Below, piece after piece: positions 27,285-31,114 of a stretch of 64,000 bases of DNA; within the stretch, counting starts at the first letter, position 1; each line of letters opens with the position of its first letter. The notes beneath the pieces were generated by a model. It was not told where the DNA came from. It made no database searches and saw only the letters and a program-made list of their open reading frames with translations. The stretch is taken from assembly GCA_965246715.1 (NCBI GenBank), contig CBDFFH010000020.1:128001-192000 (forward strand), given 5' to 3'. This stretch comes from Chamaesiphon sp. (GTDB lineage: Bacteria; Cyanobacteriota; Cyanobacteriia; Cyanobacteriales; Chamaesiphonaceae). The position numbers and the translations under genes were made by a program.

Positions 27285-28115
27285 GTGTTAACAGTGGTAG
27301 TTTTTACATATAAAAAAGTTCGCAGACGGTTGCTGTTGCTACTCGCATTCAGCGTTTTAGTTGGTGTATTGATGCGTTCCGAAGTAGCCATTTCAACGCA
27401 ATTATCCCAAATTTCTAACTCTAAGCCTTCGATCGTGCTCGTGCATGGTGCCTATGCTGATGCGACATCCTGGCAACACGTCATTCCACTGTTGGAACGG
27501 GATGGCTATAACGTCTCCGCCGTGCAGATTCCGCTCACCTCACTTGCTGATGATGTTACAACGACGAAACGGATGATTGATGCTCAGAAGGGTTCTGTCG
27601 TAGTGGTTGGACATTCCTATGGTGGAAATGTGATTACGGGTGCGGCGGCTGGCAATTCGCGGGTGAAGGCATTAGTTTATGTCAATGCTTTCGCACCGGA
27701 TGCAGGTGAAAAGACGAGCGATTTGAATGGCAGATACGCAGCACCTCCGATTAGCAAGGCAATTGTGTCCGATCCGGCCAACTTTCTCTATGTCGATCGG
27801 CAGAAGTTTCACAATCTTTTTGCCCAGGACGTATCGGAGACTGAGGCGCGGGTGATGGCAGCAACTCAAAAGCCGATCGCTAGCGCAGCTTTCGACCAAT
27901 CAGTGAATGCCATCGCCTGGAAGACAATTCCTTCCTGGTACCTCGTGACTCAAAGCGATCGAGCCATCAACCCTAAGCTTCAGCGATTTATGGCTCAACG
28001 AATTGGTGCTAAGACAACTGAAGTCAACTCCAGTCATGTTCCGTTTATATCTCATCCAAAAGAGGTTACTAAACTGATCGAAGCGGCTGCAACTGCCCCT
28101 GTAAAGAAGTCCTAG
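27285..28115 (+). CDS. Alpha/beta hydrolase with hydrophobic N-terminal leader
   Basis: LVHGA, GHSYGG, SSHVP. Confidence 0.85.
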   Translation: MLTVVVFTYKKVRRRLLLLLAFSVLVGVLMRSEVAISTQLSQISNSKPSIVLVHGAYADATSWQHVIPLLERDGYNVSAVQIPLTSLADDVTTTKRMIDAQKGSVVVVGHSYGGNVITGAAAGNSRVKALVYVNAFAPDAGEKTSDLNGRYAAPPISKAIVSDPANFLYVDRQKFHNLFAQDVSETEARVMAATQKPIASAAFDQSVNAIAWKTIPSWYLVTQSDRAINPKLQRFMAQRIGAKTTEVNSSHVPFISHPKEVTKLIEAAATAPVKKS

Positions 28116-28307
28116 CCGAAAATTAATCGATGGTGTTGAGTCGATCTCGATCTGCCATGCCGACACTTACAAACATCACTTATTCCAGGAGGTAGGATCG
28201 TGCCGATTCAAAATACCAACAAAATTACTAAAGTTGATGGCTCTCAGCCCTTGCTGCATCAGCATGGACATGAAATTCAGCAGTATGGCAAACTGCGAGA
28301 TCTGCCG

Positions 28308-28331
28308 TTCGCGAAGCGTCTCGGAACGAGA
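28308..28331 (+). mobile_element. 24-nt double-hairpin mini-element (dps #1)
   Basis: CG^[TTCGCGAAGCGTCTCGGAACGAGA]ATCG; LP-FAKRLGTR-IAL. Confidence 0.85.
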
Positions 28332-28505
28332 ATCGCGCTCGACCCTAATGCCCGCACCGAAAGCTGTACGTTAGTCAACCAAATTTTGGCAGACACCATC
28401 ATTCTCTACCACCTCTACAAAAAGCATCATTGGTTGATGCGCGGACACACGTTTTATCAACTGCATCTGTTACTTGACAAACATGCCAGCGAACAGCTTG
28501 AATCG

Positions 28506-28530
28506 TTAGCGTAGCCTCTCGCTTGCGAGA
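28506..28530 (+). mobile_element. 25-nt double-hairpin mini-element (dps #2), adds stop and frameshift
   Basis: CG^[TTAGCGTAGCCTCTCGCTTGCGAGA]ATCG. Confidence 0.85.
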
Positions 28531-28577
28531 ATCGATGCAATGGGAGAACGGGTACAAACACTTGGAGGAGTGGCGAT

Positions 28578-28601
28578 TCCCCTTCAGGGAGGCTTCGCCA
28601 A
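28578..28601 (-). mobile_element. 24-nt double-hairpin mini-element (dps #3) in a full HIP1 site
   Basis: GCGAT^[TCCCCTTCAGGGAGGCTTCGCCAA]CGC. Confidence 0.85.
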
Positions 28602-28611
28602 CGCCGACCCG

Positions 28612-29150
28612 TGTCACTTGCAGCATAAAATGGCGGAAAAAGCCAGGTTATGCTTCACAGAGCGAAGTACCTTGGGGAGTAAAGATAGAAGTGGAAGTAG
28701 TTCACAGAAAGAATTTTAGCCAAATGGATTGTGTTCTTCATCTTCCTGATTGAGACTTTCAGGCGATCGATCGCTTAAATAAACCAGCCCTGCTAAAAGC
28801 AAAAGTTGGGATGAGCACAACAAATAGATGTAATCAGTTCAATAACTGTTTATCTTTAAAAAATCTTGCACAGCAAGGGTTTGAGTTATTTTGCATCAGA
28901 ACGATTTAATTTTATCTTGATAAAATGAATCATATATTGTCTGAGAGTTCTCAGAAATAGCTGCTTTTTAGTGAGATTTTGTACCCAATTCGCTAAAAGA
29001 ACTCATCGCCTTGTTATGCTTCATTTTTAGAACTCAACGCCAATTTATGATACAAAACTCGATCGAATCGATCGCCTAGAATGACCTGTTTTCGTTTCTA
29101 GACCGCCAAGTTATGATTCACAAATCCGCCATTTTATGCTGCAAGTGACA
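28612..29150. mobile_element. 539-bp non-autonomous Tn7/Tn5053-like mini-transposon
   Basis: Perfect 26-bp TIR TGTCACTTGCAGCATAAAATGGCGGA; 5-bp duplication ACCCG (28607-28611, 29151-29155); repeated internal 17-bp boxes; no transposase. Confidence 0.9.
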
Positions 29151-29277
29151 ACCCGCGCCATGTAGCAGAAGTTACCAAGATTAAGCGTCCTCCCAATGGC
29201 GTTGAAGAAGTGCCCGTGATGCTATCGCGCTTGCTCGAAGCACATGAATTAATTATTGGAGAACTCAGGGATGCGAT

Positions 29278-29301
29278 TCTCGTTCCGAGACGCTTCGCGA
29301 A
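29278..29301 (-). mobile_element. 24-nt double-hairpin mini-element (dps #4)
   Basis: CGAT^[TCTCGTTCCGAGACGCTTCGCGAA]CG; exact reverse complement of 28308-28331. Confidence 0.85.
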
Positions 29302-29491
29302 CGACAAAACCGCAGCGAATCGAGATAGCGGCACGAATGATTTGTTGGTGAGTCAAGTGCTACGCATGAATGAGCTACAGGTTTGGTTTCTAGCAGAACA
29401 TTTGGTAGATACACCGCTGGTACACAGCTAGTTTCGATCGTTCAGGATCGGCTCTCCAGCAGTTATGGTGATAAGCAAGATTTATTGAAAG

Positions 29492-29526
29492 GGGGAAAGG
29501 TTAATGGGTAAAGGGTAAAGGGGAAG
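29492..29526 (+). repeat. Short tandem heptamer (STRR-like) repeat
   Basis: GGGGAAA GGTTAAT GGGTAAA GGGTAAA GGGGAAG. Confidence 0.5.
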
Positions 29527-29665
29527 AAGGCGCGCTCGATTGACATGTAATTTGGCCATTTTCCTCAAAATCGCAGGAGAGCCACCCGCGAACGAGAACT
29601 TAGTAAAAGCTTAATTGTCTGCTATTCCGATTTTTCCATCCATCACGACGAGAGAGGGGATCGAC

Positions 29666-31114
29666 ATGACAACAACGACCGATTTCGATTTTGCTGCCCG
29701 CGAGGCACTACGCCTGCTCGGTTCCGATCCCGAAAACTGGGTACCCGATCGCCCTGGCATCGATCGCAATGTCACGATTATCGGTGGCAGCGGCAGCGGT
29801 AGCACCTTTGGATTTGCGCTGCGGCGTGCTGGGATCGGTCGCGTGACGGAGATCGATGCAGCAGAGGACGAGGCTCATGCTGGCGTGTGGCTGACGCGAG
29901 CGCGGATGAGAACGCTCCGCACGCCGAAACATCTGCCTGGGCCAGAACTAGGCATCCCAGAATTGTCATTTCAAGCCTGGTACGAGGCGCGGCATGGCGC
30001 GGCAGCCTACGCACAGATCGATCGGATCGAGCGAGTGGCTTGGGCTGAGTACCTCAGTTGGTATCGGCATTTCCTGGGTATCCAGGTTCGTTACCGGACG
30101 AAGTTGTTACGGATTGAGCCAGCCACAGGTTTCTTCCGCCTACACCTTGAGGTAAACGGTGCCTCGCAGGTAGAGACTACGCGCAAAATTATCTTCGCCA
30201 ATGGCGTGGCTGGCACGGGTGGTGCATACATACCTCCAGTACTGGCTGACTTACCCCGCACGCTGTACGCCCATACCGCCGATGCCATCGATTTTGAAGC
30301 CCTACGCGGTAAGACTGTGGCGGTGCTGGGTGCGGCGGCTTCCGCTTTCGATGCCGCCGCCGTGGCACTGGAATCGGGAGCCAAGGCAGTACACCTATTT
30401 GTCCGGCGATCGGCGATCGCATCTCTGTCAGTGCTGCGGATTCGGGACTATCCTGGTGCTTACGACAACTATCCCCAACTACCCGATGCAGCCCGCTGGT
30501 TCCAGGCTTGGCAGTTTCATCGAGCGGGCACCGCGCCACCTCCGAATTCGATTAAGCGAGCGATCGCCTTCCCGAACTTTTACATTCACCTATCTGCACC
30601 TTGGAAATCGGTATGGAAAATGGGCGATCGTCTTGCCATCCAGGTGAACGATGATGTTTTCGAGTTTGATTTTGCGATCGCTGGCACTGGTTACTTCGTT
30701 GACCCAACAAAGCGTCCCGAACTCGCCGACTTTGCCCAGCATATTGCCCTCTGGCGCGATCGCTACGAGCCACCAGAAGACTTGCGCGACGATGGTTTGG
30801 GGATGCACCCTTATCTTGGCAGTGCTCACGAATACCAAGAAAAAGTACCTGGCACTGCCCCCTATCTGAAAGACATTCACGTCTTTAATCCTGCTGGTTT
30901 GGTCAGCTTTGGCTTGCCAGTTGGTGACATCCATAGCATCCGCCGCGACGTACCTGCAATCGTATCGCGCATCAGTCACGACTTGTTCTTTCAGGACTGG
31001 GCGCATCATGAGGCAAGGATCGCAGGTGATGTCGCCCCCGATTTTGAGAACTCGCTCTATGCTGCTGCGGTGTGGAAACAATCGATTCGCTGCCGCGACT
31101 CGCTAGGTCGGTAA
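29666..31114 (+). CDS. FAD/NAD(P)-dependent flavoprotein monooxygenase
   Basis: IGGSGSG, RMRTLRTPK, VLGAAASAFD, IAGTGY. Confidence 0.8.
   Translation: MTTTTDFDFAAREALRLLGSDPENWVPDRPGIDRNVTIIGGSGSGSTFGFALRRAGIGRVTEIDAAEDEAHAGVWLTRARMRTLRTPKHLPGPELGIPELSFQAWYEARHGAAAYAQIDRIERVAWAEYLSWYRHFLGIQVRYRTKLLRIEPATGFFRLHLEVNGASQVETTRKIIFANGVAGTGGAYIPPVLADLPRTLYAHTADAIDFEALRGKTVAVLGAAASAFDAAAVALESGAKAVHLFVRRSAIASLSVLRIRDYPGAYDNYPQLPDAARWFQAWQFHRAGTAPPPNSIKRAIAFPNFYIHLSAPWKSVWKMGDRLAIQVNDDVFEFDFAIAGTGYFVDPTKRPELADFAQHIALWRDRYEPPEDLRDDGLGMHPYLGSAHEYQEKVPGTAPYLKDIHVFNPAGLVSFGLPVGDIHSIRRDVPAIVSRISHDLFFQDWAHHEARIAGDVAPDFENSLYAAAVWKQSIRCRDSLGR

What the first reader, a model, noticed from the sequence alone, without database searches (positions are those of the whole stretch)
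28200..29431. dps gene as an insertion hotspot: five inserts in ~590 bp of coding sequence
Seen: removing four mini-elements and the mini-transposon with one duplication yields an open Dps-like frame. Three inserts are in frame, one (25 nt) adds a stop and frameshift, and the transposon sits 10 bp after element #3. No intact CGATCG is evident in the remaining coding part, whereas neighbouring genes keep many empty sites. Inference: either relaxed selection after the first knockout reveals a high insertion rate, or locus-specific targeting. Reversible inactivation is possible but unsupported.
Basis: partly seen in the sequence, partly recalled or inferred. Interest (0 to 1): 0.7.

Follow-up and report, generated by a model that had tools for sequence, protein, structure and literature searches.

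The report
Dps gene filled with tiny inserts
A horizontally shared stress-protection gene (dps) in a cyanobacterium has all four of its CGATCG sites filled by 24-25-base hairpin inserts and is also split by a 539-base mini-transposon; relatives carry partial versions, so the inserts likely piled up step by step in a dispensable gene rather than forming a reversible switch.

Summary
Observation confirmed. Removing four 24-25-nt elements and a 539-bp TGT...ACA mini-transposon (5-bp duplication) gives an open 196-aa Dps. All 4 of its CGATCG sites are filled, against 109 of 21,922 in coding and 79 of 6,627 in non-coding DNA genome-wide. It is the only run of four filled sites. The elements are SDR5-like double hairpins, present in 27 of 27 genomes of the genus; the mini-transposon resembles Tn5541. 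Public alleles form a ladder (#2-#4 absent; #1+#3 in an open frame; #2+#3+#4 without transposon; all five), so in-frame inserts came before the frameshift and the transposon came last. 'Knockout first, then sink' does not hold in its simple form. Elements cluster in accessory DNA, neighbouring copies are often identical (#1 = #4), and dps alleles are mosaic. The neighbouring hydrolase also carries a recurrent insert (2 of 21 close homologues; dps 6 of 19; p about 0.13), so dps-specific targeting is not shown. I found no evidence of reversibility. The mobilising enzyme was not found. Earlier notes of this scan report this element type on other DNA.

The parts
28200..29431 (+). Interrupted dps gene (196 codons once the five inserts are removed); closest solved structure PDB 4CYB
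   Evidence: (intact homologue P0008 vs 4CYB, E 6e-77)
28308..28331 (+). Element #1, 24 nt, in frame (+8 aa after Pro36), inserted at CG|ATCG
   Evidence: same 8-aa insert in P0001-P0004 and P0135
28506..28530 (+). Element #2, 25 nt; brings a stop (28512-28514) and a frameshift
   Evidence: also in run X5 next to #3
28578..28601 (-). Element #3, 24 nt, in frame, inside the palindrome GGCGATCGCC
   Evidence: same insert in P0001
28607..28611 (.). Left copy of the 5-bp target duplication (ACCCG)
28612..29150 (.). 539-bp non-autonomous Tn7-like (Tn5541-like) mini-transposon: TGT...ACA ends, 26-bp terminal inverted repeats, repeated TnsB-site-like motifs, no transposase
29151..29155 (.). Right copy of the 5-bp target duplication
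29278..29301 (-). Element #4, 24 nt, in frame; exact reverse complement of #1
   Evidence: same site filled in P0015 (same peptide) and P0004 (one residue different)

Best explanation
This dps gene has been filled by four SDR5-like double-hairpin mini-elements and then a Tn5541-like mini-transposon, most likely step by step, because it is a dispensable, horizontally shared gene in which inserts persist and get stacked by local copying and recombination between alleles. Shown: the inserts and their target; genus-wide abundance of the element; alleles with subsets of the inserts; clustering of elements in accessory DNA; excess of identical neighbours; mosaic dps alleles. Inferred: in-frame #1 and #3 were near neutral and came first; one of the identical pair #1/#4 was copied from the other; #2 ended the frame; the transposon came last. 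Also inferred: the element moves as single-stranded DNA (its GCGNAGC arm is a DNA mini-hairpin motif) by an enzyme not identified here.
For: Allele ladder: X2 has a near-identical allele lacking #2, #3 and the transposon (joint 28505-29153) and lacking #4 (record 13, 24-nt gap, 5 differences). P0001 has #1+#3 only. X5 has #2+#3 and #3+#4 without the transposon. Accessory gene: 8 of 24 other genomes of the genus had any match at E<=1e-30 and only G002 a close one. The surrounding cluster recurs in Nostoc, Pseudanabaena, Phormidium and Allocoleopsis loci at about 65-91% DNA identity. Two other Dps genes remain in the genome. Clustering: 28 neighbour pairs under 1 kb vs 6.2 expected; 216 of 329 20-kb bins are empty; the dense stretches I sampled hold many IS transposases, a broken topA and a MobF relaxase. 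Local copying: 6 of 54 neighbours within 3 kb are identical vs 0.66 in shuffles; the #1/#4 variant occurs only 3 times in the genome. Mosaicism: 70 of 231 pairs of informative residues fail the four-gamete test in 21 close Dps sequences, and filled and empty #1 alleles sit on identical backbones (P0002/P0064). Structure: compensatory pairs in both stems and a G-N-A loop in 88 of 103 distinct 24-mers. GCGNAGC is a very stable DNA mini-hairpin, and the tetraloop RNA counterpart tested was much less stable (PMC13037366).
Against: Even the overdispersed genome model expects only 0.002 blocks of 4/4, and all 43 sites within 5 kb are empty, so accessory status alone does not explain the full load. 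The same B-BC loop is hit independently by a different 27-nt element in Nostoc loci L094/L015, by another 24-nt variant in G014 and by the transposon, which hints at a site preference or at selection. The ladder is pieced together from short unphased metagenome contigs and single proteins. Amino-acid homoplasy can mimic recombination. The identical-neighbour excess comes largely from one cluster of self-similar DNA (C2:234-248 kb). The element detector was trained on hairpin-like sequences, which inflates stem conservation. The whole element with flanks folds no better than shuffles (z -0.95 to +0.55 for the four window elements). Tolerance of the in-frame inserts is untested.
Confidence: 0.55

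Rival explanations
1. True locus-specific targeting: dps DNA is more accessible to the insertion machinery, for example through stress-induced transcription, single-strandedness or the extended palindrome GGCGATCGCC.
For: 4 of 4 filled vs 0 of 43 nearby. Four independent events of three element types fall within about 15 bp of the GGVAIADPR loop across taxa. Insert-bearing homologues: 6 of 137 Dps vs 1 of 120 hydrolase in the first searches.
Against: The Dps queries themselves carried inserts, which favours retrieving such alleles. With cluster members added, the close-homologue counts are 6 of 19 vs 2 of 21, p about 0.13. Among fetched dps-family loci only 1 of 159 dps sites vs 5 of 1,013 flanking sites held this element family (duplicates and non-cyanobacteria not removed, other element families not detected). 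Element orientation is unbiased relative to the gene (53 vs 56). No expression data were available.
Confidence: 0.2
2. Selection for loss of this acquired Dps: successive inserts weaken and finally remove a protein that is costly in this host.
For: Independent disruptions in other taxa: an in-frame stop from the 27-nt element in L094/L015, and #4 late in a predicted helix. Two other Dps genes remain.
Against: The rebuilt frame has no point stop or frameshift and dN/dS 0.13 vs L093. The tblastn survey of fetched loci and the ten relatives' hits showed no excess of ordinary knockouts. Inserts added after the frameshift (at least the transposon) gain nothing.
Confidence: 0.1
3. Pseudogene sink: one early knockout removed constraint and a high background insertion rate filled the rest.
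For: Decaying stretches reach 14-50% occupancy, for example the broken topA 3 of 14 and the C2 cluster 8 of 29. The transposon did arrive after the frameshift. An in-frame insert could itself be the functional knockout.
Against: Open-frame alleles with #1, #1+#3, #1+#4 or #4 exist. Non-coding occupancy is 1.2%. No other decay has accumulated in the gene.
Confidence: 0.12
4. Programmed reversible inactivation: elements excise precisely under stress and restore Dps.
For: Insertion without duplication would allow scarless loss. Filled and empty #1 alleles share identical backbones. Run X1 holds alleles with and without the transposon at similar depth, 7.2 and 6.2.
Against: Restoration needs at least two unrelated precise excisions. 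No transposase of this type was found in the genome by tblastn. The transposon-free allele in X1 and X5 is most simply the pre-insertion state.
Confidence: 0.03

Closest known systems
SDR5 (small dispersed repeat 5) of Nostocaceae, Elhai et al. 2008 (paper not held; known from passages in PMC4390886, PMC5861425, PMC13756078)
   Same: Very small dispersed element inserted precisely between the third and fourth base of HIP1 (CG|ATCG); function and mobiliser unknown.
   Different: Here 22-25 nt (125 of 188 are 24 nt) rather than 21 nt. It uses the CGATCG core with any flanks (11 of 188 sit in a full GCGATCGC). The host is outside Nostocaceae, where PMC5861425 says none had been found. Sequence could not be compared with SDR5.
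Tn5541-type Tn7-like elements (TnsAB fusion + TnsC, no TniQ), as described in PMC9881144
   Same: TGT...ACA ends, 5-bp duplication, repeated end motifs. The ends are 72-85% like those of elements in G020, among them 4.5-kb TnsAB+TnsC elements with 5-bp duplications.
   Different: The window copy is a 539-bp non-autonomous miniature. Its exact autonomous partner was not found, and no TnsAB homologue was found in G000.
Dps of PDB 4CYB (recalled as Streptomyces coelicolor DpsC; the name comes from no call)
   Same: Homologue P0008 matches 4CYB at E 6e-77 over residues 26-196; the His/Trp/Asp/Glu columns recalled as the ferroxidase site are invariant in 70 homologues.
   Different: The window allele is broken; the cyanobacterial subfamily scores below the curated cut-off of NCBIfam PRK09448 (89 vs 114 bits).
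REP/REPIN elements moved by HUH (Y1) transposases
   Same: Short hairpin DNA without coding capacity; Y1 genes are present in the genome (6 matches).
   Different: The elements do not flank the Y1 genes as ends. One 22-mer lies about 310 bp from the C34 match and none was scored in the other five loci. No link was shown.

Membership tests
SDR5 | Insertion between third and fourth nucleotide of HIP1 (CG|ATCG) | tested here: met
   All four window elements and 188 genome-wide; 0 such flanks among high-scoring hits in the reversed-genome control.
SDR5 | Confined to the full octamer GCGATCGC | tested here: not met
   11 of 188 have G...C flanks; T-flanked sites dominate.
SDR5 | Length 21 nt (PMC13756078) | tested here: not met
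   125 x 24, 40 x 22, 13 x 25, 9 x 23, 1 x 26 nt.
SDR5 | Sequence and structure match to the published SDR5 consensus | not testable with these tools
   Elhai 2008 not held.
SDR5 | Mobility (filled and empty orthologous sites) | tested here: met
   Empty sites 1-3 in L093; P0002 vs P0064; X2.
Tn5541-like Tn7 family element | TGT...ACA ends with terminal inverted repeats and 5-bp target duplication | tested here: met
Tn5541-like Tn7 family element | Encodes TnsAB and TnsC without TniQ | tested here: not met
   No gene in 539 bp; only relatives in G020 encode them. It is a non-autonomous derivative.
Tn5541-like Tn7 family element | Mobilised by a cognate TnsAB | tested here: inconclusive
   100% identical copy elsewhere in G020, but no cognate transposase was found; the Pfam Mu-C search rang nowhere, controls included.
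Dps (mini-ferritin) | Ferritin-like domain with Dps ferroxidase residues | tested here: met
   Pfam PF00210 above cut-off on both halves; alignment to 4CYB; invariant columns.
Dps (mini-ferritin) | Dodecamer assembly and peroxide protection | not testable with these tools
   Needs experiment; both structure models were low confidence.
HUH-mobilised (IS200/IS605 or RAYT) element | Element flanks or forms the ends of a Y1 transposase gene | tested here: not met

The most novel reading that the evidence does not exclude
The 24-nt elements spread between diverged alleles of the same gene by a homing-like, very short-patch conversion of empty CGATCG sites, moving as nuclease-resistant single-stranded DNA mini-hairpins. 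The same rare variant sits at site #1 in six alleles up to about 12% apart, the same peptide sits at one hydrolase site in three alleles of 70-97% identity to the window's protein, and filling removes the methylation/restriction site. A frequently transferred gene such as this dps would then be driven to full occupancy, and the locus would be a ready assay for how SDR5-type elements move.
Probability: 0.2. Interest if true: 0.75.

Novelty: new variant of a known kind. Interest (0 to 1): 0.42.

Why it matters
SDR5-type elements are among the smallest mobile DNAs described and their mobilisation is still unexplained (PMC13756078 calls SDR5's function unknown). This locus gives four target sites in 0.6 kb with a natural series of alleles from nearly empty to fully filled, so insertion order, local copying, allele conversion and protein tolerance of 8-residue inserts can be tested in one amplicon. 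The conserved GCGNAGC arm points to a single-stranded DNA intermediate. As a dps story alone it is an ordinary pseudogene of an accessory paralogue.

Tried and rejected
Elhai 2008 could not be read, so SDR5 sequence membership is untested; its supplements were not seen. Rfam: no match over 27500-30000. Plasmid collection: no match to the mini-transposon. tblastn with G020 TnsAB/TnsC against G000: no hit at 1e-5. Six Y1 transposase loci: no element-defined ends. Reverse transcriptases are present (22 matches), but no link was tested. Both AlphaFold models were low confidence (mean pLDDT 37.7 and 44.1) and are not used as evidence of insert tolerance. Whole-element folding was not better than shuffles. 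No RNA holder listed. The split dps in G517 is only two overlapping contig ends with an intact frame. X1 may be the source sample and is not counted as independent support. Assembly chimera was considered and rejected for #2-#4, since X5 from another study shows the same adjacencies; the transposon-in-dps junction was seen only in X1. Four paper searches listed no paper on dps as an insertion hotspot or on this element in this genus; the library lacks most subscription journals.

Full report
Observation. The interval 28200-29431 holds two Ferritin-domain fragments. Four short inserts (28308-28331 +, 28506-28530 +, 28578-28601 -, 29278-29301 -) each split CG|ATCG without duplication, and a 539-bp element (28612-29150) has TGT...ACA ends, 26-bp inverted repeats and a 5-bp duplication. 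Removing them gives 591 nt, one open 196-codon frame, gap-free against L093 at 90.8% protein identity with dN/dS 0.13. All 4 CGATCG sites of that frame are filled. An intact homologue matches PDB 4CYB at E 6e-77.

Background. G000 (6.12 Mb) has 28,367 intact CGATCG. A profile-plus-hairpin scan gave 292 elements, 188 of them with exact CG|ATCG flanks; the reversed genome gave none with such flanks. Occupancy is 109 of 21,922 sites in ORFs of at least 100 codons and 79 of 6,627 outside. In ORFs 83 of 109 are multiples of three and 79 of those add no stop, against 42 of 79 outside, so frame-breaking copies are purged. Around dps, 0 of 43 sites within 5 kb and 10 of 421 within 50 kb are filled. 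dps is the only window of four consecutive filled sites; a beta-binomial fit to the other 7,115 blocks expects 0.002. The locus is a real outlier, with the caveats that it was chosen for standing out and that #1 and #4 are identical.

The element. In 103 distinct 24-mers, positions 3-5 pair with 9-11 around a three-base loop that is G-N-A in 88, and positions 12-16 pair with 20-24. Pairs 3-11, 13-23, 14-22, 15-21 and 16-20 covary, with 0 of 2,000 shuffles reaching the observed pairing (related copies and a hairpin-weighted detector inflate this). GCGNAGC is described as an unusually stable DNA mini-hairpin, with the tested RNA counterpart much less stable (PMC13037366, abstract start and passages). 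From this I infer a single-stranded DNA intermediate. A degenerate pattern matched 27 of 27 genomes of the genus (11-130 copies, control 0) and 27 of 301 genomes across the phylum, at 1-7 copies outside the genus. The genus is likely Chamaesiphon: TCGATCGA is the commonest flank class, as Elhai 2015 reports for that genus (PMC4390886 passages), and the element occurs beside dps in loci titled Chamaesiphon (L123, L131). The target is the one reported for SDR5, but length, flank tolerance and host range differ (passages of PMC13756078 and PMC5861425). The original paper was not held, so I file it as SDR5-like, not SDR5. Earlier AI notes of this scan describe the same kind of element in other genomes. 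No mobiliser was identified.

The mini-transposon. It is single-copy in G000, 100% identical to a copy inside a tnpB-like gene of G020, and close variants are present in several metagenomes, at higher depth than dps in X5, X6 and X8. Its ends are 72-85% like those of elements in G020, among them 4.5-kb elements encoding a TnsAB fusion and TnsC with 5-bp duplications, the layout given for Tn5541 (PMC9881144 passages). No such transposase was found in G000.

Order of events. Of 137 Dps homologues examined, 6 carry in-frame inserts at the same sites: P0001 (#1+#3, 99% identical to the rebuilt gene), P0002, P0003, P0135 (#1), P0004 (#1+#4 variant) and P0015 (#4) (the queries carried inserts, which favours such hits). 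Eight of 20 listed runs were laid. X2 has a near-identical allele without #2, #3, the transposon and #4; X1, possibly the source, has alleles with and without the transposon. X5 has #2+#3 and #3+#4 without the transposon. The simplest order is in-frame #1/#3, then #2 and #4, then the transposon. These pieces are unphased.

Why here. The gene is accessory: 8 of 24 other genus genomes had any match and one a close one; the cluster recurs in distant cyanobacteria; two other Dps genes remain. Elements cluster (28 pairs under 1 kb vs 6.2 expected), and the dense stretches I fetched (76 proteins scanned: 75 of 128 ORFs plus one Dps homologue) include many IS transposases, a broken topA and a relaxase, with 14-50% occupancy. 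Near neighbours are identical more often than chance (6 of 54 vs 0.66), and the #1/#4 variant occurs three times in the genome, which suggests local copying. Close Dps alleles are mosaic (70 of 231 incompatible pairs) and #1 is present or absent on identical backbones, so recombination can stack inserts.

Results against a simple reading. The neighbouring hydrolase has one recurrent insert, in P0253, P0268 and P0269. Among close homologues the counts are 6 of 19 for dps (own sequence and one duplicate dropped) and 2 of 21 for the hydrolase (at least 85% identical, own copy dropped); Fisher's test, run on 2 of 20, gave p = 0.13. In fetched dps-family loci this element family filled 1 of 159 dps sites and 5 of 1,013 flanking sites. 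So dps-specific targeting is not shown. On the other side, the loop at site #3 was hit independently by a different 27-nt element that adds a stop in Nostoc-type loci L094 and L015, by another 24-nt variant in G014 and by the transposon, so a site preference or selection for loss remains open. Structure models were too weak to judge tolerance.

Verdict. A real, extreme case of stepwise filling of an accessory dps by an SDR5-like element, capped by a Tn5541-like miniature. It is a new variant of a known kind and useful as an assay locus. Reversibility is unsupported. Interest 0.42.

Noticed in passing
L094:4325-4351 (approx.) and L015: A different 27-nt element sits at the same GCG|ATCGC site (#3) of dps in Nostoc-type loci and adds an in-frame stop; the second dps copy of the same titled Nostoc genome (L099) is intact.
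   Followed up: partly
G020:C1:1961084-1961622 (L174, L200): The mini-transposon is 100% identical in another species of the genus, inside a tnpB-like gene, but its flanks there do not form a 5-bp duplication.
   Followed up: partly
window 27285-28115 homologues P0253, P0268, P0269: The same 8-residue insert at one site of the hydrolase in alleles of 70%, 90% and 97% identity to the window's protein.
   Followed up: partly
G000:C2:236499-245077 (L202): Cluster of 11 elements, mostly a 22-nt frame-breaking subfamily (40 strict copies genome-wide), all on the + strand, in self-similar IS-rich DNA.
   Followed up: partly
G000:C14:59238, C16:21835, C22:152578 and others: About a dozen copies of a REPIN-like repeat carry the element at a non-standard CG|CACT site; the repeat is about 80% like the repeats flanking the Y1 transposase at C9:115803.
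   Followed up: partly
G000:C9:96192-100940 (L206): A MobF relaxase and its two neighbours carry five in-frame elements; part of the block appears duplicated at C9:10095-13939.
   Followed up: no
G000:C36:130277-132220 (L203): A topA copy broken into three ORFs carries several elements.
   Followed up: no
window 29447-29523: Short repeat downstream of dps (purine-rich heptamers) with very high summed depth in the metagenomes laid; about 15 matches in the genome.
   Followed up: no
window 19125, 41999, 45726, 46958, 48324, 48993: Further elements of the same family in the window, two of them in frame in one oxidoreductase gene.
   Followed up: no
G000: Three copies of a variant with a four-base first loop (GCGNNAGC type) that the profile scan largely missed, so the element counts are lower bounds.
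   Followed up: no
G000: 22 reverse-transcriptase matches, several identical in multiple copies.
   Followed up: no
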